64,000 bases of DNA from the human T2T-CHM13v2.0 reference genome, Homo sapiens, in assembly GCF_009914755.1 (NCBI RefSeq), contig NC_060927.1. One strand, written 5' to 3'. The position numbers and the translations under genes were made by a program. The notes below the pieces were generated by a model. The model was not told where the DNA came from, searched no databases, and saw only the letters and a list, made by a program, of their open reading frames with translations. Below are positions 39,845-57,924 of this stretch, piece after piece (position 1 is the stretch's first letter; the number at the start of each line of letters is the position of its first letter).

Positions 39845-39937
39845 TTCTGCATGAGGACACACTAAGGAAACTGCATTTCCAGAGAGAGACACACCACGTA
39901 GGACTGAAAATGGTTACTCTAAGGGGATTCGTGACAG
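39845..39937 (+). other. ARGFX: ARGFX exon 1 (5' leader; start approximate), contains ATG at 39910
   Basis: Near-consensus donor GACAG|GTAAGC at 39937/39938 downstream of the TATA box; TSS inferred. Confidence 0.65.
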
Positions 39938-40814
39938 GTAAGCATGGGGGAGCGGGGAGGGTAGCCAGAATGTGGGGCTTTAAGTGCTCAAAGAGGATTT
40001 GAAAAATCAAAGGAGCAATATTAAAGGATGCAAACCACTCAGCCCATTCACATTAGAGGGACATGATATAGATGGTTGGGGACAGAAGGAAGGTCAGAAA
40101 GACTGACTGTTCACCTCATGAAAATCAGGGAGTGAATGTGAGACTCCTTACTTACTGAGTGTGGTTGTCAGTTCTGCAGGGCTCCCAAACTTTCTCCATC
40201 TGTGTTAGCCAGGCCTTTGGAAATCCTTAATTAGAATGTAAACTCCATCATAGCAACTATTTTTGTGTACTTCGTTCATTGCAGAATCCACAGACCTATG
40301 TAAGTGCCCATTTGTAGGAGGAAGGCAATAAAAAATTGCTGAGTAAATGTGGTTCTGCTAGTGGCAATTCTGCCTTATGCTCTTGATAGCCTCGATCAGG
40401 GAAAGCACTGTAGACCAGTTGAATCGTTTGCTTCTTTGTTTCTTTAATATGCTAGTTTAAGCTACAGACTCTCAATGCCCATCCCAGGAAAGTGGGCCAG
40501 GGTTTAGACTGTGTGTACAAGAGTCAGTAAGACCTGATTCATTCCCAGCTATGCTTCTTCTCTACCTGGCCAAACTTTTAGATCTCATGTCTCTTCATCT
40601 TTAAGAGGTTGATAATAATTGTCCATTACCCCATGTGTTTGTCGAGGATCACATGAATCATGTATATGAAGCACTTGGATGTCTGACGGTATCCTAATGT
40701 TGCTACTGAATGTTACTGCATCATTTATTTACTCTTAGGATTGTACTGAAGAACAGATGCTTAGTGAAGTTTAATTTCTTTTCAATTAAATGCTAAGCCT
40801 TAGGCCATCTGTTG

Positions 40815-41770
<956 letters not shown>

Positions 41771-42637
41771 GTACATTTGTTATAGAATAAGAGTGAAAAA
41801 GTAAAATAACATGCAAGATGTCACCATTGAGGGAGGCTAGCTGAAGTGTGTGCAGCACCTTAACCATATATATTATTTTGCAATTTCTTGTGAATCTGAA
41901 ATTAGTTCAAAATTAAAAGTAAACAAAACAAAACCAGTAAACAACATGGTAATTTTTGCTTTCAATATTCATATATATTCCAAATAGCTTTTAAACATTT
42001 AAGACCTATTATATGTAAGCAGATATTTACCATATGTGTGGCTTTTCCTTTATTCTTGAAGTTCCAATTTTCCCTCTTAGGAAGAATTTTCTTTAATACT
42101 CCACAGAACAGGACTACTGGCCACAGATTCTCATAGTTCAGAGAATGTCTTCATTTCACCTTCTTTCCTGAAAGATATTTTCCCTGGATACGGAATCTGA
42201 GTTGATTGGGAGTGATGGCAAGTGGTGTAAAAAACAATCTAAGTTGACAGTGGTACAAAATCTTTGAAGTGCTAAAAGAACTGTCTTTGTTTCTGATGAG
42301 AAATCTGTGGTCATTTGATCTCTATCTTTTCGTGTATAGATTGCACTTTAACAATCTCATCAAAGAAATATCCCTCTACTTTGAGTCACAAAGATATTGA
42401 CACAGGATTTCTTTTGTTATTTCTAAAGTTTCATTTTTGACAAGTACAGCTAGAGTATTTCTCTATGGTATAAAATATGAATCATTTTCCAGCTGAGGTA
42501 GAGGAATTGGGGGTTAACCTCACTTGCCAGAGGTCATACATCAAGCCCAGGCTCCTTGAAAACATTGCTATCCAGTGAATGAATTCCTCATCAGCATTCC
42601 CTATCTCATAGGCCTTCCATCTCAGATTTCAGAAACC

Positions 42638-42740
42638 ATGAGGAACAGAATGGCCCCAGAGAATCCCCAGCCAGACCCTTTCATCAATAGGAATTATTCC
42701 AACATGAAGGTGATACCACCACAGGATCCAGCTAGTCCCA
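42638..42740 (+). CDS. ARGFX: ARGFX exon 2 coding part (MRNRMAPENPQPDPFINRNYSNMKVIPPQDPASP)
   Basis: Recognised ARGFX N-terminus; ACCATGA start; acceptors CTCAG|42626 and TTCAG|42633; donor CCA|GTGAGT (phase 1). Confidence 0.93.
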
Positions 42741-43249
42741 GTGAGTATCATCCTTCTTTGTCCTCTTTCCTTTTCTACTGCCCCATTCTCATGCAGCCCT
42801 ACAATTGCATTTTGCATTTGTTTTAAGGCAGCTATTGATTGTTTTAAAAAATCTATTCAAAAAGTCTTCCCATCATAAAAGGAGAAATACATTTCAAATC
42901 AAATGTGCCTTTGGCCCATGGTTGATTCAAATTATGAGAGATAAGCTAAGAATATAATATATAGAGCAAGTGAGCATGTTTTTCTAGGAGAAAAGATCTG
43001 AAACATAGACAGATAGAAACTGAGAAATCTCCTTTTCCAAGGCAGGTATATTGTGGCCCAATATGGAAGGAAAATGAAAACAAACAAACAAACAAAAGCT
43101 CATTATTCAGAGTAGTATTGTATACATGTATAAGAAGATTCATTTATATAAGGTGGATCTTAGTGAATTGTTCTGAAATATATATTTGTTATTTGATATT
43201 TTATCCTGGAGATTTCCCAAACATTGTTTGTATACAATGTTTACCTTTA

Positions 43250-46050
<2,801 letters not shown>

Positions 46051-46148
46051 AGTTCAAGACCAGCCTAGGCAATATAGTGAGACCCCATCTTATAAAATAA
46101 ATATATTTACTGAAAGGTATGAAAAGCTCTTTCCAGAAGCATTCAGGG

Positions 46149-46675
46149 CAGCAGTCTCCAACCTTTTTGGCACCAGGGACTGGTTTGTGGAAGACAGTTT
46201 TTCCACGGACTGGTTGGGGGGCTGATTTTGGGATGATCCAAGGACATTACATTTATTGCACATTTTATTTCTATTATTATTACATTGTAATATATAATGA
46301 AATAATTATGCAACTCACCATAATGTAGAATCAGTAGGAGACCTGAGCTTGTTTTCCTGTAACAAGATGCTCCCATCTGTGGCTGATGGGAGACAGTGAC
46401 AGATCACCAGGCATTAGATTCTCATAATGAGCATGCAACTTAGATCCCTCACCTGTGCAGTGCACAATAGGATTCATGCTCCTATGAGAATCTAATGCTA
46501 CCAGCTGATCTGACAGGAGGCGGAGCTCTGGCAATAATGTGAGCTATGGGGAGCGACTGTAAATACAGATAAAGCTTCGCTGACTCATTCGCTGCTCACC
46601 TCCTGCTGTGCGGACCAGTTCCTAACAGGCCATGGACCCATACCAGTTTGTGACCCAGGGGATTAGGGACCCCGG
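46149..46675 (+). mobile_element. MER1A (hAT-Charlie) element
   Basis: CAG..GTC.CCAACCTTTTTGGCACCAGGGAC...GGGACCCC.G; degenerate 8-bp TSD ATTCAGGG/ATTTAGGA. Confidence 0.8.
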
Positions 46676-47134
46676 ATTTAGGAGATGTGGAAGAATATGT
46701 TACACACCAAATAGAATTGTTATTTCTTACATCTCACACAGTACATGGCTAAGAATTTTGCAGAAAATCCCCAGCAGAATGGTAATGTGGAAATAGAGGC
46801 TGCAGGAACATGGTGAGAACTGAGAGAACAGAAGAAAGTTCAGAAAATTGATATGTTTGAAGACCAAATGTATGTACAAATTAGTCATTGCTGTTTCACA
46901 CAATTTCAGTGGTTTTAAAAAAATAAGTATTTGTTGTTGTTTATCAATCTACAAGCCAGGCCAGGTGCAGTAGCTCACGCCTGTAATCTCGGCACTTTGG
47001 GAGGCCGAGGCAGGCGGATCACAGGGTCAAGAGATCGAGATCATCCTGGCCAACATGGTGAGACCCCCCATCTCTACTAAAAATACAAAAATTAGCTGAG
47101 CGTGGTGGCGTGTGCCTGTAGTCCCAGCTACTCA

Positions 47135-47344
<210 letters not shown>

Positions 47345-47688
47345 TTAAAGTAGCCTATGTTGCAGAATATGAGCTCTTTTCGCTATAGTCTCTCATCCTC
47401 TAGAAGGCTAGTCCAGGCTTGGAGGGAGAGAGTGGGTGAGACAGAGAGAGGGCAGGCATGAGAGCGAGCACAGAAGCATGCACGGCCTCTTGAGTGGGGG
47501 GCATCATCACTTCAGAGTGTCACTCTCTGGCTCAATTAAGAAGGTGTGGCTAGGTTGGGCACAGTGCCTCATGCCTGTAATCCCAGCACTTTGGGAGACC
47601 GAGGTGGGTGGATCATTTGAGGGCAGGAGTTTGAGACCAGTGTGGCTGATATGGTGAAACCCCATCTCTAATAAAAGTAAAAAAATTA

Positions 47689-47838
<150 letters not shown>

Positions 47839-48234
47839 TTAAAAAAAAAAGTGTGGTTGGAAATAAATGAAATAAATGTAGGACAAAGAGAAAAGGAAGA
47901 GGAAAATAAGGTCTCATTGTACATAATCTGTGAAGTGACTCAATAAAATAAAGCTATTCTTTTTTATTTTATAAATGTGAAAACTGAGACCCTCCACGTA
48001 AACAGACATTTATGTTTTGCCAAATTTTCTCCTTTTTTTTTTCCTTTTTGTGGAGAATGGGGGTCTCACTATGTTGTCCAGGCTGGTCTTGACTCCCAAG
48101 GTCAAGCAGAATGCTTTGCCTCCCTAAATGCTGAAATTACTGATGTCATCAACAGTGCCCAAACCAAATTTTCTAATAATAATGGACATGTGTGTTCCCT
48201 GAGATTATGGTGGTTTGGATGGTCCAGTGGCTAA

Positions 48235-48495
<261 letters not shown>

Positions 48496-48498
48496 TGA

Positions 48499-48930
<432 letters not shown>

Positions 48931-49059
48931 TAAGATAATGGAGATAAAACAAAAGTACTTGATGACCATTTCTATCAGTTCCATTCTATCTCCTCTCTGA
49001 GGTTGTCATTACAATAGGTTTCTCATAATTTTTGTAGTCTACTCTCTATATATTCATAA

Positions 49060-49352
<293 letters not shown>

Positions 49353-51321
49353 TGACCAGGCTGGTCTTGAACTCGTGACCTCAAGTGATCCGCCCGCCTG
49401 CCTTGGCCTCCCAAAGTGCTGGGATTACAAGCATGAGCCACCACACCTGGCCAGAAAAGTATATTTTACATGTCACATTACCCTGCTGAAAAGACTTCAT
49501 TTTCAGTGACATACTCTAAACTAAAATAAAATTAATTTACAAAAGAGAGGTATGTTGTGCATACAATGTGCCACACATTATTGTAGTGTATTAATGCCTT
49601 TACATTAATAAATCAATATAATTAGTGCCTTACATTAATACATTCATGTAATAAATTTACAAACCCTATTATAAAGTAGGTATTCATTTTTGTGTGTGTG
49701 GCAAGGTCTCATTCTGTTGCCCAGGCTGGAGTGCACTGGCATAATCTCAGCTCACTGCAACTTCTGCCTCCTGGGGTTCAAGCGATTCTCCTACCTCAGC
49801 CTTTTGAGTAGCTGGGATTACAGGTGCTTGCCACCATATCTGGCTAATTTTTGTATTTTTGGTAGAGACAGGGTTTCACCATGTTGGCCAGGCTGGTCTC
49901 AAACTTCTGACTTCAAGCGATCCGCTCGCCTTGGCCTCCCAAAGTGCTGGGAATACAGGCGTGAGCCACCACACCTGGCCAAAAGTACGTACTCTTAACA
50001 TTCCCCCTACCCCACTTTTTTTTTTTTTTTTTTTTTTTTGAGACAGAGTTTCACTCTTGTTGCCCAGGCTGGAGTGCAATGGCGCAATCTTGGCTCACTG
50101 CAACCTCCTGCCTCCCAGGTTCAAGTGATTCTCCTGCCTCAGCCTCCAGAGTAGCTGGGATTACAGGCATGCGCCACCATACCTGGCTAATTTTGTATTT
50201 TTAGTAGAGATGGGGTTTCTCCATGTTCGTCAGGCTGATCTCGAACTCCTGACCTCAGGTGATCCACCCACCTCAGCCTCCCGAAGTGCTGGGATTACAG
50301 GTGTGAGCCACCACATCTGGCCACATTCCCCTTTTATGCTTGATGAAACTGAGGTGGGCTGGGTGTGGTGGCTTCCACCTATAATTCTAGCACTTTGGGA
50401 GGCTGAGGTGCGGAGGATCACTTGAGCCAAGGAGTTTGAGATTAGCCTTAGCAACATAGCAAGACCCCATCTGTATTTAAAAAATTAAAAAATTTTAAAA
50501 AAGAAATTGAGGTGAAGAGTTTGGGTAATAGGTTCATAATCACATTCCTAGAAAAGTATAGTTTTATCTTTTTTTTTTTTTTTTTAAACAGAGTCTCGCT
50601 CTGTTGCCCAGGCTGGAGGGCAGGGGCGCGATCTCGGCTCACTGCAAGTTCTGCCTCCCAGGTTCAGGCCATTCTCCTGCCTCAGCCTCCTGAGTAGCTG
50701 GGACTGCAGGCACCCGCCACCACACCCAGCTATTTTTTTTTTTTTTGTATTTTTAGTAGATATGGGGTTTCACCATGTTAGACAGGATGGTCTTGTTCTC
50801 CTGACCTCGTGATCCACCTGCCTTGGCCTCCCAAAGTGCTGGAATTAAAGGCGTGAGCCACCGTGCCCGGCCTGAAAAGTACTGTTTTAAAAGCAAAATT
50901 TCTACTGTTGAACATATATCAAGATTACTGCTTAAAACTTTTCCACAGTGCAACTTGCATATTATGGACTCCTTGAGCTAATTGAATAAGAAATAGATCA
51001 AAGTTTTCAGAAGACAGCATGTATACATTTAAATTTCTGGAAGAAATGCGCCCCACATGGATGTGAGTTTTCCTGGGATATTATTGGTAGTTGTCCATAT
51101 ATGATGTTTCCTTGACTTAATCTTCCTTATCACATTGCCCTAAAAAATAACTTAGGTCTGCATTTATAATTATTGAAGTATTTGTAACACAAAGTATATC
51201 CTGGTTCCAGGCTTTTTATTTTTCCTTATCTGATACCAAACTGATCTATAGTTTCTTTAATTTTCATTTTAGCCAAGGCTGACTGAAAATACTTTCAAGT
51301 ATATAATGTTTATTTCCACAG

Positions 51322-51425
51322 TACTCTGATGAATAGGGTATCCTTTGTGACTCCTCAGCCACATATTTTAATCAGCATCAGTGATTCCAGCGTGTCCTTG
51401 ATACCACAGGACCAAGCCAGTTCCA
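51322..51425 (+). pseudogene. Diverged intronic paralog of ARGFX exon 2 (MNRVSFVTPQPHILISISDSSVSLIPQDQASS), cryptic or pseudo-exon
   Basis: Hand alignment to exon 2 gives 66/100 nt with a single 3-nt gap; strong TTTCCACAG acceptor; donor is A|GCAAGC. Confidence 0.7.
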
Positions 51426-51710
51426 GCAAGCTCTGTTCCCCTGTGCCCTCTCTGTAGTCTGTATCTCTTCTCAGGGAGCCCACTTGTCCTTCCCTAAGAG
51501 GGTAGTTACCAGGTGTGAATATAACCTAAATCTAGGACTAAATATCTTGTATGTTGGTCATATTTGATTGAGATGGGTTTTCCTGGAATAGAATCAGGAG
51601 GCTGATGAGCTGGGTATGGTGGTGCACATTTAGTCCCAGCTACTGTGAAGGCTGAGGCAGGAGGATCCCTTGAGCCCAGGTGTTAGACACCAGCCTGGGC
51701 AACATAGCGA

Positions 51711-52690
<980 letters not shown>

Positions 52691-53179
52691 TCCTATTTCA
52701 AGGGACATTTTGAATAAATACAGAAGCAAGCTAATGATTCAAAAGTATGTAAAAAGCTAAAAACACACACAAAAACCCACTGCTTCCTTTACTGTATCAT
52801 CTATATGTTTTTTATTTAATTTACTTTTATTATATGTTGTGTTTAGATACACACAAATAGATAGCAAGTTTATTATTATTATTTCTTTTTTGAGGCCGAG
52901 TCTCGCTCTGTTGCCCAGGAGTGCAATGGCATGATCTCAGCTCACTGCAACCTCTGCCTCCCGGGTTCAAGCGACTCTCGTGCCTCAAGTAGCTGGGCTT
53001 ACAGGCACACATCACCACTCCAGGCTAATTTTTGTATTTTTAGTAAAGATGGGGTTTCGCCATGTTGGCTAGGCTGGTCTCAAACTCCTGACCTCAAGTG
53101 GTCTGCCCAAAGTGCTGGGATTACAGGTGTGAGCCACCATGCCTGGCCAAAATAGTAAGTTTAAAGCTTCTAACTTTAC

Positions 53180-53895
<716 letters not shown>

Positions 53896-54771
53896 GAGAG
53901 TAATTGGGTGGTTGGGGAACAGGGATGGTTTCAATTTTGTACTATTTGTACATATTGCTTTTCCAAATAAATGAATAAATCAAGTTCTTATTTTTAAACA
54001 ATTTACAGTTTGTAAATTGTTATTTTTAAACAATTTACAGTAAGTAGTTAGGTTATGGAAGTCACAAATGCACCCCTATGGGATGAGTGTGGGGGGAAAG
54101 TGGTTATCTTAATATTATATAAATAAGTTTCCTGTGGCTTAGAACAAAATTCCCAGTAACAGTATTCCACAGACACATTCCAGAAATATTGTATCACAAA
54201 CTACTTATTTGAAAGTAAAGAATTAGTGCCTGGTAAAACGATGTTATTTAATTAAAAGAACAGGCTCAGAATATTTAAGATATGGCTATCTAAGGTAAAT
54301 ACAGTTTGAGTAGAATAATTTTATTAAATGTGAGCAGAAAAAAATCAATATTTCTAAGTATATTGGATTTCACATATATATATGAACTGAAAAAATAAGA
54401 TATTATAAGTTTAGAAATATGTACATTTAAAGTGGGATTAAATATGTTTTATATAGGTTATTTTCATCTACGTTCGTAAGTGGCATTGCCTATAGTTTTA
54501 TCTATAGTGTTTATTTTTGCCTGATTTTAGTATTGGTATTATGGACTTTTAAGTACAAGAAGGGAGGTCCAAGTGAGGACCTTTCCTCCTTTTACTTTTA
54601 TTTTATTTATTTTTCTAGAGCCAGGGTCTCTCTCTGTTGCCCATGCTGGAGTGCAGTGACATGATAGTAGCTCACAATAGCCTTGATCTCCTGGGTTAAA
54701 GTGATCCTCCCACCTCAGCCTCCCATAGCTGGGACCACAGGCATGTGCTACCATGCCCACCTAATTTTTAA

Positions 54772-55348
<577 letters not shown>

Positions 55349-56108
55349 TGAGACAGGGTCTCACTCTGTCACCCAGGCTGACACATGATTGTGCAGTGAC
55401 ACAATTATGGTTCACTGCAGCCTCAACCTCCCAGGCTCAGGCAATTCTCCCACCTCAGCCTCAAGAATAGTTATTATGCGGTGACAATCATGGTTCACTA
55501 CAGCCTCAACCTCCTGGCTCAAGCAATCCTCCCACCTCAGCCTCAAGAATAGTTGGGACCACAGGTACATGCAACCATGCCCAGCTAATTTTTTAATTTT
55601 TCATAGAGACAGGGTCTCCCTACACTCCCCAGGCTGGTCTCCAACTCCTCCAGTCATGTGATGCTCTTACCTTGGCCTCCCATAAGTGCTGGGATTACAG
55701 GTGTGAGCACATTGTGCTGACCACGTTTGATTTCTTTTCCCCAAAGTAGTGAATAGAGCCTCAGAAATCCCATAAAAGAAAAAGCTCTACCAGGCACGGT
55801 GGTTCACATCTGTAATCCCAACACTTTGGGAGGCCAAGGCAGGAGGATCACTTGAGCCCAGGAGTTCAACATCAGCCTGAGCAATGTAAGGAAACCCCAT
55901 CTCTGTGAAAGAAAAAGTTTTTTAATTAGCCAGGAGGGGTGATAGTGCCTGTAGTCCTAGCTACTCAGGAGGATGAAGCCAGAGGATTGCAGGAGCACAA
56001 GAGTTCAAGGTTACAATGAACTATGATCGTGCCACAGCATTCAGCCTGGGCAATAGAGCAAGACCCCGTCTCTAAAAAAAGAGAGAGAGACAGAGAGAGA
56101 GGAAGCAA

Positions 56109-56172
56109 GGAAGGAAGGAAGGAAGGAAGGAAGGAAGGAAGGAAGGAAGGAAGGAAGGAAGGAAGGAAGGAA
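56109..56172 (+). repeat. (GGAA)16 perfect microsatellite in ARGFX intron 3
   Basis: Counted directly: 64 nt. Confidence 0.95.
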
Positions 56173-56819
56173 AGAAAAGAAGAGCAAAGCAAAGCAAAGC
56201 AAAGAAAAGAGCCTATTTGCCAGATGAGATGGACTGGATTCCTGAACAAATAAATGAAGAGAGGAAACCCATTTAGAAGAGTGGGTTATATTCAGTTGCA
56301 AAGACATGGGGTTTATTCCTAGTTTTTTCTATTTCATAATTAAAAAAATTTTTGGCTAGCTCTTGCACAGAATATTCCTAGTTTCTAGAATAACAAAAGT
56401 GTGAAAAAGATGAGAAGACAGAAGCTACTATCCACTGTCCTGAGGTTAGGTAGGGTAGAAAGACTGAGTACCAGAGAATAAAAGTAAAACAGAAAACTTT
56501 TCAGTGCAGTCAGGGCAGACTGAAACTCAAGGGAGCCAGTTTCCAGAGTGAACAGACTGAGTACACAGAAAATTGAAGAGGTAACTCATGTCCTATCAGA
56601 GACAAAATCTCAGAAAGCGGAGGACAGAGCATTGTTACACAGGGCTCAGCCATTCAGACTCAAGACCTGGGATCTGCATTTTCTGGATCCTAAGCCTGGT
56701 TGGAGGAAAGGCATGAGAGATTCACCATGGTGATTTGTTTTTTGGTTTTTGTTTTTTTGGTTGGGGGGAGAGATTGGTAATGTAAATGTAACCACCCCTT
56801 CTTTATCTCTGCCCTGAAG

Positions 56820-56968
56820 CAATACGGAGAAGGCATAAAGAACGTACTTCTTTCACCCACCAACAGTATGAGGAGCTAGAAGCTCTGTTTAGCCAGACCA
56901 TGTTCCCAGATAGAAATCTTCAGGAGAAACTAGCTTTGAGACTCGACCTACCGGAGTCAACAGTAAAG
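56820..56968 (+). CDS. ARGFX: ARGFX exon 4, homeodomain N-terminal part (AIRRRHKERTSFTHQQYEELEALFSQTMFPDRNLQEKLALRLDLPESTVK)
   Basis: 149 nt; GAAG| acceptor and AAG|GTCTGA donor; PRD-class homeodomain with the intron between homeodomain codons 46 and 47. Confidence 0.95.
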
Positions 56969-57924
56969 GTCTGATCCCCTGTGGTGTGCTTGGTACCCCC
57001 ATCCAAGCCACATTCACCTATCCAGCCTGGAAATTCCCCACCCTCTACCCCTGCCCCACAATAATATTTCATTAATTGAGTACCTACTGAAACGGTATCA
57101 AACTGGGGACATCGCAAATACTGGCCTCACTCTCATGCAGTTTGAAAAATGAGAAAAAATGAGGTTCAGAGGCAAAGTGACTGGGCCACAGAGATAAGAA
57201 ATAGTGTTGCTAGAACTAAAACCCCAGAAATCTTATTTTTAATACTTGTACTATAGAGTTCAAATAGCGGAAAGGTGCTCATCCAGACAGACTCCTCGCT
57301 TAGAGTCTTTTTAAGCAAAGCCCTGCAATCTGTTTATTCATAATGCTACCAACAGACAAATAATACTCCCTCTAACCTCTGAGTCTGCTAAAGCCCATGA
57401 CGTTTTTCTTTTTTCTCTTTTTTTCAGAGATGGGGTCTCACTATGTTGCCCAGGCTGGTCTCAAACTCCTGAGCTCAAGTGATCCTCTCACCTCAGACTC
57501 TCAAAGTGCTGGGATTACAGGTGTGAGCCACCGTGACTGGCCATACATTTTTACTGGAGTATTCCTTATAGGAGAGGCCTCCTAAAATAATCCTTAAAAA
57601 TCCTTCAGTTCAAATTCTTCACCTCTCCCTAGATCCTAGATCCCTAAACTAGCCTCTCTTCTCTAGAGTTCAGGACCCTATCTCTGAACACCCAGCACAA
57701 ACCCTGAAACACACCCGCTTCCTTCCTTTCTGGGGTCCCAGACCTGATCTTCATCATCCCTCCTATTGACTCCAGTCATGCCCATCTCTGCTTTTGCAGA
57801 GCCCAGTGTCATGGTGAATTAGAGAGGACATGAAGATTATAACCTGGCTGTTTTCACTCAGGAGAATCCTCCAATGCCTCCTCCAATAACAGACCACAAT
57901 CTCCCCCTCTTCCCCTACTCCCAG

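What the first reader, a model, noticed from the sequence alone, without database searches (positions are those of the whole stretch)
51322..51431. Hidden ancient paralog of ARGFX coding exon 2 inside intron 3: possible alternative first coding exon or poison exon with a GC donor
Seen: from 51326 the sequence aligns codon-for-codon to exon 2 (42638-42740) at 66/100 nt with one codon-sized gap. The peptides are MNRVSFVTPQPHILISISDSSVSLIP-QDQASS and RNRMAPENPQPDPFINRNYSNMKVIPPQDPASP. Five changes are synonymous (AAC/AAT, AGA/AGG, CCC/CCT, GAT/GAC, GCT/GCC), and there is no stop or frameshift. It has its own ATG (51329) and a strong acceptor TTTATTTCCACAG, and it ends in the same phase 1 at A|GCAAGC, where exon 2 has A|GTGAGT. 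Inference: an old exon duplication that stayed under coding constraint for some time. Splicing exon1>exon2' would give an alternative N-terminus in frame with the homeodomain exon; the exon-1 uORF would then end at a TGATG stop/start overlap (51327-51331). Inclusion after exon 2 or 3 would create an immediate stop (xTA CTC TGA), i.e. a poison exon. It is absent from the ORF track and I do not recognise it as annotated.
Basis: partly seen in the sequence, partly recalled or inferred. Interest (0 to 1): 0.8.

Follow-up and report, generated by a model that had tools for sequence, protein, structure and literature searches.

The report
Decayed duplicate of ARGFX first coding exon
An old, previously unreported copy of the first coding exon of the human embryo gene ARGFX sits in the intron before the homeobox exon, but its splice donor is dead and it looks like a neutral relic, not a working exon.

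Summary
51326-51425 aligns to the coding part of ARGFX exon 2 (42638-42740) at 66/100 nt with one 3-nt gap. This is far above chance: score 31 against at most 18 in the other 629 tiles, and against at most 15 in 500 shuffles. The segment is unique in the window and in the whole CHM13 genome.

It keeps ancestral states that human exon 2 has lost. Non-primate ARGFX first exons match it better than human exon 2 does. So it is an ancient DNA-level exon duplicate.

The functional reading is not supported:
- Mismatches fall 11/11/12 over the three codon positions.
- dN/dS is 0.65, and the synonymous count, amino-acid identity and open frame all lie within neutral simulation.
- The GC "donor" pairs with U1 at -1.5 kcal/mol, against -4.3 to -11.0 for the used donors, no better than the typical GT or GC site in the gene.
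- Two processed pseudogenes carry exons 1-2-3-4-5 with no exon 2'.
- No predicted protein contains the peptide.

Embryo junction data and other mammalian genomes could not be checked.

Side finding: a 96%-identical twin of Alu exon 3, with intact splice sites, lies 446 nt downstream.

The parts
51322..51425 (+). Exon 2' body, the paralogue of ARGFX exon 2. From 51326 it is collinear with the exon 2 coding sequence and ends in phase 1.
   Evidence: 66/100 nt identity with one 3-nt gap. Score 31 against at most 18 in the other tiles. E 6e-4 window against window. Unique in the CHM13 genome by DNA and by peptide. tblastn with rhinoceros ARGFX first exon gives 17/31 identical, E 1.9e-7.
51329..51331 (+). 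ATG of exon 2'. It is homologous to the second ATG of the older ATG-ATG start of exon 2. The preceding CTG matches the L-M start seen in the rhinoceros, deer and whale models. The Kozak context is weak (C at -3, A at +4).
   Evidence: Both retrocopies read ATGATGAAC where human exon 2 reads ATGAGGAAC, and 2' has CTGATGAAT. Peptide alignment. Sequence.
51301..51321 (+). Acceptor-like signal: 13 pyrimidines in the 20 nt before the AG. A CTGAC branch-point-like motif lies at 51279-51283.
   Evidence: Read. No evidence of use.
51426..51431 (+). Disabled donor GCAAGC, homologous to exon 2's GTGAGT. All three differences are transitions, including +2 T>C and +6 T>C.
   Evidence: U1 duplex -1.5 kcal/mol against -7.6 for exon 2 and -4.3 to -11.0 for all five used donors. 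640/875 GT and 412/769 GC sites in the gene pair as well or better.
42626..42740 (+). ARGFX exon 2 (coding from 42638), the functional paralogue.
   Evidence: Hub annotation; translation. It is orthologous to the first coding exon of all eutherian ARGFX proteins fetched.
51271..51289 (+). Weak upstream flank block, 15/19 identical to 42544-42562. The offset differs by 39 nt from that of the exon.
   Evidence: score 11, reached by 7-13 of 300 shuffles. Suggestive only.
51468..51481 (+). Weak downstream flank block, 12/14 identical to 42786-42799 and nearly collinear.
   Evidence: score 10, reached by 37-45 of 300 shuffles, so not significant alone. The local alignment runs through it.

Best explanation
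51322-51425 is a decayed relic (pseudoexon) of an ancient intragenic DNA duplication of ARGFX's first coding exon.

- Origin: the copy arose before the changes that mark primate exon 2, probably near the base of placental mammals. It landed between the first coding exon and the homeobox exon. The only exon now lying between the two copies is the primate-specific Alu exon 3.
- Evolution since: it has changed at about the neutral rate.
- Splicing: its 5' splice site has lost the GT (now GC) and the +6 T, while already lacking the exonic AG. U1 should not recognise it, so the spliceosome skips it and it stays part of intron 3.
- Open frame and ATG: these are survivals expected fairly often by chance in 33 codons.

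Shown: homology, uniqueness, ancestral character states, lack of a codon-level selection signal, weak donor, and absence from two fossil mRNAs.

Inferred: the age, the neutrality throughout its history, and non-use in embryos.
For: Homology:
- 66/100 nt with one codon-sized gap.
- Score 31 against at most 18 in the other 629 tiles and at most 15 in 500 shuffles.
- E 6e-4, with a single partner on each side.

Not a repeat:
- Only a self-hit in the 3.1-Gb genome, by DNA and by peptide.
- The exon 2 peptide finds only itself and two retrocopies.

Genomic duplication, not a cDNA insert:
- The donor hexamers are homologous (GTGAGT / GCAAGC).
- There is no exon 1 or exon 4 sequence next to it.

Ancient:
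- 2' has the ancestral base at 3 of 3 sites where human exon 2 differs from both retrocopies.
- It lacks the extra codon shared by all 9 primate exon 2 sequences in the alignment.
- It keeps the CTG-ATG start. It is 17/33 identical to the rhinoceros first exon against 13/33 to human exon 2.
- 6 of 9 ARGFX proteins used as tblastn queries hit it.

Neutral pattern:
- Codon-position mismatches are 11/11/12, and transitions to transversions 17:17.
- dN/dS is 0.65; synonymous count P 0.24; amino-acid identity P 0.53; P(no stop) 0.47.
- 2' is less like the non-primate first exons than human exon 2 is: 17 against 21 of 33 for rhinoceros, 12 against 19 of 32 for manatee.

Not spliced:
- U1 duplex -1.5 kcal/mol.
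- The chr5 and chr17 processed pseudogenes have exons 1-2-3-4-5 abutting, with no 2'.
- One RefSeq transcript without it (hub table).
- Testis RT-PCR from exon 1 to exon 5 confirmed the four annotated introns (PMC2894831 passages).
- 0 of 43 candidate proteins of 99-2000 aa matched the 56-aa open frame at E<=10.
Against: - The 2' side shows no indel in 100 nt and no stop, while the flanks are no longer significantly alignable. With a recalled indel-to-substitution ratio of about 1:8, roughly 2-3 indels would be expected on a neutral branch of this length (P of none about 0.05-0.1). A period of coding constraint after the duplication therefore cannot be excluded. Selection on exon 2 alone, plus ascertainment, explains part of this contrast.
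- The acceptor side looks usable, and a decent GT donor (CAG|GTGTGA, -6.7 kcal/mol) lies at 51512/51513.
- Six ARGFX splice variants were cloned from 8-cell embryos, four of them off the gene model. Their structures are only in a figure I could not see (PMC4944136).
- Tests on 33 codons have little power. ARGFX's N-terminal part has dN/dS above 1 among great apes (Table 1 passage of PMC2894831).
- The protein database is clustered at 90% identity, so an isoform could be hidden inside a cluster.
Confidence: 0.72

Rival explanations
1. A live but rare alternative exon. Either exon 1 splices to 2' and then, through the GC donor, to exon 4 or to the Alu twin at 51871, giving an ARGFX isoform with a different 32-residue N-terminus. 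Or the exon is included after exon 2 or 3, where it puts a stop in the third codon and sends the mRNA to nonsense-mediated decay (a poison exon).
For: - All the frames work in silico: 1-2'-4 is open, and inclusion after exon 2 or 3 gives an immediate stop.
- The acceptor-like tract and branch-like motif are present.
- Four embryo splice variants have unseen structure (PMC4944136).
- The frame has stayed intact over a long time.
Against: - The donor pairs with U1 at -1.5 kcal/mol, at or below the typical random GT or GC site of the gene. From recalled literature, GC donors that work normally have a near-perfect match at the other positions; here -2, -1 and +6 also mismatch.
- The start context is weak.
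- It is absent from 2 of 2 retrocopies, from RefSeq, and from the predicted proteins searched.
- There is no selection signal.
Confidence: 0.1
2. A formerly functional, mutually exclusive partner of exon 2. It would have been used in early placental mammals, perhaps still in some lineages, and was silenced in the human lineage by the donor mutations.
For: - Similarity is confined to the exon, with an indel-free open frame while the flanks have decayed.
- One rhinoceros gene model (P0034) carries two tandem copies of this exon in frame. Its extra copy is most similar to human 2' among the 18 other sequences compared (14/33) and shares 4 states with it that the usual exon lacks.
Against: - In the rhinoceros model the extra copy lies upstream of the normal exon. 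In human it lies downstream, so orthology needs a rearrangement or a third copy.
- The model is a lone 'hypothetical protein, partial', and its extra exon found only itself in the database (1 of 1 candidates).
- The tree of the 19 exon peptides is unresolved: 12 of 16 inner branches are open.
- The 4 shared states are each one nucleotide step from the usual residue. My hand estimate for that many arising by chance is about 0.05.
Confidence: 0.13
3. Chance similarity, or both segments derive from an interspersed repeat.
For: Only 100 nt at 66% identity.
Against: - The score is far outside both controls, and E is 6e-4.
- Independent support comes from non-human proteins, E down to 1.9e-7.
- 3 of 3 ancestral states are kept.
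- Each side has a single partner in the window and no other copy in the genome.
Confidence: 0.02

Closest known systems
Tandem exon duplication within a gene (the source of many mutually exclusive exon pairs; literature recalled, not read here)
   Same: Two homologous exons lie on the same strand of one gene. They have the same end phase and near-equal length (103 against 100 nt from the start-codon position). No ancestral exon lies between them.
   Different: Only one copy has a working donor, there is no transcript evidence for the second, and there is no purifying-selection signal in the pair.
Pseudoexon or exon relic silenced by a 5' splice-site mutation
   Same: It is homologous to a real exon, the GT has been lost, and it is skipped in all transcripts and fossil transcripts examined.
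   Different: The frame and an ATG are still intact after an estimated 100 million years or so, which is less usual.
Poison (NMD-inducing) cassette exons
   Same: If included after exon 2 or 3, it would place a stop codon three codons in.
   Different: Known poison exons are spliced and usually highly conserved. Here splicing is unsupported, the donor is very weak, and conservation could not be tested.
ARGFX exon 3, an exonised antisense Alu right arm (Booth and Holland 2007, cited in PMC2894831; Li and Holland 2010)
   Same: Another example of remodelling of the region between the first coding exon and the homeobox exon of this gene.
   Different: Exon 3 is primate-specific, derived from a transposable element and constitutively used. 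Exon 2' is ancient, derived from the gene itself and apparently unused.

Membership tests
Intragenic tandem exon duplicate | Statistically significant similarity to another exon of the same gene on the same strand | tested here: met
   66/100 nt, score 31 against at most 18 elsewhere, E 6e-4.
Intragenic tandem exon duplicate | Same reading phase, with a length difference that is a multiple of 3 | tested here: met
   Both end in phase 1, and the only gap is 3 nt.
Intragenic tandem exon duplicate | Adjacent in the ancestral gene, with no older exon in between | tested here: met
   Only exon 3 lies between them. It is an Alu right arm absent outside primates (PMC2894831 passages; the Alu-type peptide is seen).
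Mutually exclusive or alternative coding exon | Functional splice sites on both sides | tested here: not met
   The acceptor-like signal is present, but the donor is GC with a U1 duplex of -1.5 kcal/mol. 640/875 GT and 412/769 GC sites pair as well or better.
Mutually exclusive or alternative coding exon | Transcript evidence of inclusion | not testable with these tools
   No RNA-seq was available. It is absent from RefSeq, from 2 of 2 retrocopies and from the predicted proteins searched. The embryo clone structures of PMC4944136 were not visible.
Mutually exclusive or alternative coding exon | Purifying selection on the coding sequence | tested here: inconclusive
   11/11/12 by codon position; dN/dS 0.65; all statistics within neutral simulation. 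Only 33 codons, and no orthologous DNA.
Poison exon | Inclusion introduces a premature stop | tested here: met
   In silico, a stop in the third codon after exon 2 or exon 3.
Poison exon | Regulated inclusion and strong sequence conservation | not testable with these tools
   No expression data and no other mammalian genomes.
Interspersed repeat | Many dispersed copies in the genome | tested here: not met
   Only self-hits, and a single partner in the window. No Dfam-type library was available.
Processed (cDNA-derived) insert | Abutting exon sequences without intron signals | tested here: not met
   No exon 1, 3 or 4 sequence is adjacent, and the homologous donor hexamer is retained. Compare the true retrocopies.

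The most novel reading that the evidence does not exclude
ARGFX's first coding exon was duplicated in stem placental mammals into an alternative pair, and the human copy is not dead. Together with the recently duplicated twin of Alu exon 3, which lies 446 nt downstream at 51871-51987 with intact splice sites, it would form a shadow 5' module (2' then 3'). In cleavage-stage embryos this module would be spliced either to give an ARGFX isoform with a different N-terminus or to act as an NMD off-switch for this embryonic genome activation factor.
Probability: 0.07. Interest if true: 0.6.

Novelty: new member of a known kind. Interest (0 to 1): 0.3.

Why it matters
ARGFX is one of the fast-evolving homeobox genes switched on at human embryonic genome activation, and its N-terminal region is its least understood part.

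The relic shows that the region between the first coding exon and the homeobox exon has been rebuilt repeatedly:
- an ancient exon duplication;
- Alu exonisation;
- a recent roughly 420-bp duplication that copied the Alu exon.

It also preserves ancestral states of exon 2 (the CTG-ATG start, and no extra codon), which help to polarise changes in the primate protein.

If it were spliced in embryos it would alter the protein or its dosage, but the evidence here points to an inert relic. So the practical value is mainly evolutionary and for annotation: it should not be called as a coding exon from its open frame alone.

Tried and rejected
1. Repeat origin. Genome-wide DNA and peptide searches found only the segment itself.
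2. A larger duplicated unit. The flanks alone are not significant at 100, 300 or 600 nt.
3. A second relic of the homeobox exon or the C-terminal exon. tblastn with 9 ARGFX proteins found none in the window: outside the known exons and 2' there were only Alu hits and weak matches with E of 0.02 or more.
4. Predicted isoforms containing 2'. 0 of 43 candidates matched at E<=10. Two earlier tries failed on parameter limits.
5. Relatives of the rhinoceros extra exon. It found only itself.
6. A tree to place 2' and the rhinoceros extra copy. Unresolved: 12 of 16 inner branches open, with long branches for both.
7. The idea that human 2' is the orthologue of the normal rhinoceros exon and human exon 2 of the extra one. 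Rejected, because human exon 2 is 21/33 identical to the normal rhinoceros exon against 9/33 to the extra one, and it shares the upstream in-frame PSQISE stretch.
8. Literature.
   - 'ARGFX' with 'exon duplication': 0 papers.
   - 'ARGFX' with 'splice variants': 4 papers, none describing this exon in the passages read.
   - A 10-residue peptide word: 0 papers.
   - Embryo long-read papers PMC10616205 and PMC12057663: no ARGFX in the main text.
   - Supplements of PMC10616205: ARGFX appears only in a marker-gene list.
   - Supplementary Data 6 of PMC4569847: only primers and accession numbers.
Earlier scan findings were not open.
10. Not done: comparison with the first exons of CRX, OTX1 and OTX2. 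A resemblance recalled from memory was not tested, and it would not reach significance at this length.

Full report
**What is there**

The window holds human ARGFX: exons at 39873-39937, 42626-42740, 48698-48814, 56820-56968 and 57925 onward (hub table). I read both places.

- 51326-51425 aligns to the coding part of exon 2 (42638-42740) at 66 of 100 nt, with one 3-nt gap and no stop or frameshift.
- Translation gives LMNRVSFVTPQPHILISISDSSVSLIPQDQASS, against MRNRMAPENPQPDPFINRNYSNMKVIPPQDPASP for exon 2.
- An AG preceded by a pyrimidine-rich tract ends at 51321. The ATG is at 51329. The segment ends A|GCAAGC where exon 2 ends A|GTGAGT.
Exon 1 joined to 51322 ends the exon-1 uORF at a TGA overlapping the ATG. 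The path 1-2'-4 is in frame. Inclusion after exon 2 or 3 gives a stop in the third codon.

**Is it more than chance?**

Yes.

- With 42600-42780 as query, the 400-nt tile holding the segment scores 31.
- The other 629 of 630 tiles (both strands) reach at most 18, in the two tiles overlapping the same locus, and otherwise 16. Tile mean is 10.3, sd 1.8.
- 500 shuffles reach at most 15.
- It is not a repeat. In the 3.1-Gb CHM13 genome the DNA and the peptide find only themselves. The exon 2 peptide finds only itself and two processed pseudogenes, on chr5 and chr17.

**Independent confirmation of homology, and age**

- Both retrocopies preserve an older state of exon 2. At the 3 sites where human exon 2 differs from both of them, 2' carries the retrocopy (ancestral) base in 3 of 3. 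This includes the T that made the older start ATG-ATG. So the ATG of 2' is the homologue of that second ATG.
- I fetched ARGFX proteins of other mammals: 48 hits at E<=0.001 among 112 candidates, of which 37 were fetched.
- Their first-exon peptides show that 2' keeps the L-M start seen in the rhinoceros, deer and whale models. 2' also lacks the extra residue present in all 9 primate sequences aligned.
- 2' is 17/33 identical to the rhinoceros exon but 13/33 to human exon 2.
- tblastn of the rhinoceros N-terminus hits 2' at E 1.9e-7. 6 of 9 ARGFX proteins used as queries hit it at E<=5.
- 34% difference corresponds to about 0.45 substitutions per site (Jukes-Cantor, my arithmetic). With recalled human-lineage neutral rates this places the duplication around or before the placental radiation. 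This date is an inference.
- A tree of the 19 exon peptides does not resolve the position of 2' (12 of 16 inner branches open), although 2' does not join the primate exon 2 group.
- The homologous donor hexamers, and the absence of neighbouring exon 1 or exon 4 sequence, show a genomic duplication rather than a cDNA insert. Compare the true retrocopies.

**Was it, or is it, under coding constraint?**

No signal was found.

- Mismatches are spread 11, 11 and 12 over codon positions 1, 2 and 3. Transitions equal transversions, 17:17.
- Nei-Gojobori gives dS 0.64, dN 0.42 and a ratio of 0.65 on 33 codons.
- I simulated 34 random changes on exon 2, 5000 times. The frame stayed open in 47% of runs. 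The mean number of synonymous-different codons was 3.4 (observed 5, P 0.24). Mean amino-acid identity was 12.6 (observed 13, P 0.53).
- 2' is further from the non-primate first exons than human exon 2 is: 17 against 21 of 33 for rhinoceros, 12 against 19 of 32 for manatee. That is what a neutral copy beside a mildly constrained one would give.

Evidence the other way:

- The flanks alone are not significantly alignable at 100, 300 or 600 nt. The observed score was reached by 7 to 52 of 300 shuffles, depending on flank and length. Yet the exon has no indel on the 2' side.
- With a recalled indel-to-substitution ratio near 1:8, 2-3 indels would be expected on a neutral branch of this length.
- Selection on exon 2 alone explains part of the contrast, and a reader aligning codons would only spot intact relics. 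Still, a period of use after the duplication cannot be excluded.
- Power is low. ARGFX's N-terminal part has dN/dS above 1 among great apes (Table 1 passage of PMC2894831).

**Can it be spliced?**

- The acceptor side looks usable: 13 of 20 pyrimidines before the AG, and a CTGAC 39 nt upstream.
- The donor does not. It matches the recalled consensus CAG|GTAAGT at 5 of 9 positions.
- Its predicted duplex with the recalled 5' end of U1 is -1.5 kcal/mol. The five used ARGFX donors give -11.0, -7.6, -8.9, -4.3 and, for the twin of exon 3, -8.9.
- 640 of 875 GT sites and 412 of 769 GC sites in 40000-57000 pair as well or better.
- A better donor, CAG|GTGTGA at -6.7 kcal/mol, lies at 51512/51513. 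It would give a 191-nt exon with an in-frame stop.

**Transcript evidence**

- RefSeq lists one transcript, without the segment (hub table).
- The chr5 and chr17 processed pseudogenes are fossil mRNAs. In both, exons 1, 2, 3, 4 and 5 abut exactly and 2' is absent.
- Li and Holland amplified exon 1 to exon 5 from testis and confirmed the four annotated introns (passages).
- No predicted protein of 99-2000 aa matches the 56-aa open frame: 0 of 43 candidates at E<=10. The database is clustered at 90% identity, so this is weak.
- Madissoon et al. cloned six ARGFX variants from 8-cell embryos, two fitting the gene model and four not. This is the main gap.
- I found no mention of an ARGFX exon duplicate in print (searches; passages of PMC2894831, PMC4944136, PMC4569847 and PMC11542365).

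**The rhinoceros model**

- One black-rhinoceros protein (P0034, 'hypothetical protein, partial') has two copies of this exon in frame: an extra one upstream of the normal one.
- The extra copy is most similar to human 2' among the 18 other sequences compared, at 14/33. It shares four states with 2' that the usual exon lacks.
- However, it lies upstream, whereas human 2' lies downstream of the normal exon.
- Human exon 2 is clearly the orthologue of the normal rhinoceros exon: 21/33 identical, plus the shared upstream PSQISE stretch.
- The extra exon has no relative in the protein database.
- Whether this reflects one old duplication with rearrangement, a third copy, or independent events stays open.

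**Verdict**

The best reading is a neutral relic of an ancient tandem duplication of the first coding exon, silenced at its donor (confidence about 0.72). Rare use in embryos (about 0.1) and former use as an alternative exon (about 0.13) remain possible. This is a new member of a known kind, the exon-duplication relic, and of modest interest.

Noticed in passing
window 51871-51987 (+); block 51711-52107 against 48489-48907: A twin of the Alu-derived exon 3.
- It is 112/117 nt identical, with the same acceptor (ttttgagacag|GTTTCA) and the same donor (ACAG|gtgcgtgcc; U1 duplex -8.9 kcal/mol, as for exon 3).
- It is open in the same phase.
- It belongs to a duplicated block of about 420 bp that also contains a non-Alu junction and a (TTTC)n tract.
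- Exon 3 and the twin share 3 derived bases against both retrocopies, so the block was copied or converted after those retrotranspositions.
- It lies 446 nt downstream of exon 2' and is not in the RefSeq transcript.
- Inclusion would add 39 residues in frame.

   Followed up: partly
window 39873-39937 (exon 1), with 42626-42740: Exon 1 carries an ATG in a strong context (GAAAATGG). In the annotated mRNA its reading frame runs 31 codons and overlaps the main ATG out of frame, which should damp ARGFX translation.
   Followed up: no
proteins P0040 and P0042 (muntjac and white-tailed deer ARGFX models): Ruminant models carry an extra coding stretch between the first exon and the homeobox exon. By eye it looks SINE-derived, a possible parallel to the primate Alu exon. 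The bovine cDNA paper reports two 5' coding exons (PMC11542365 passages). This was judged by eye only.
   Followed up: no
loci L004 (chr5) and L005 (chr17) of the window's genome: Two processed ARGFX pseudogenes, 88-95% identical per exon to the parent, contain the Alu exon. The chr17 copy has an in-frame TAG in exon 2. Their existence is known from the literature (PMC2894831 passages).
   Followed up: partly
window 51299-51305: A TATATAA motif lies about 25 nt upstream of the exon 2' ATG. It is probably just AT-rich intron sequence, and there is no evidence of a start site.
   Followed up: no
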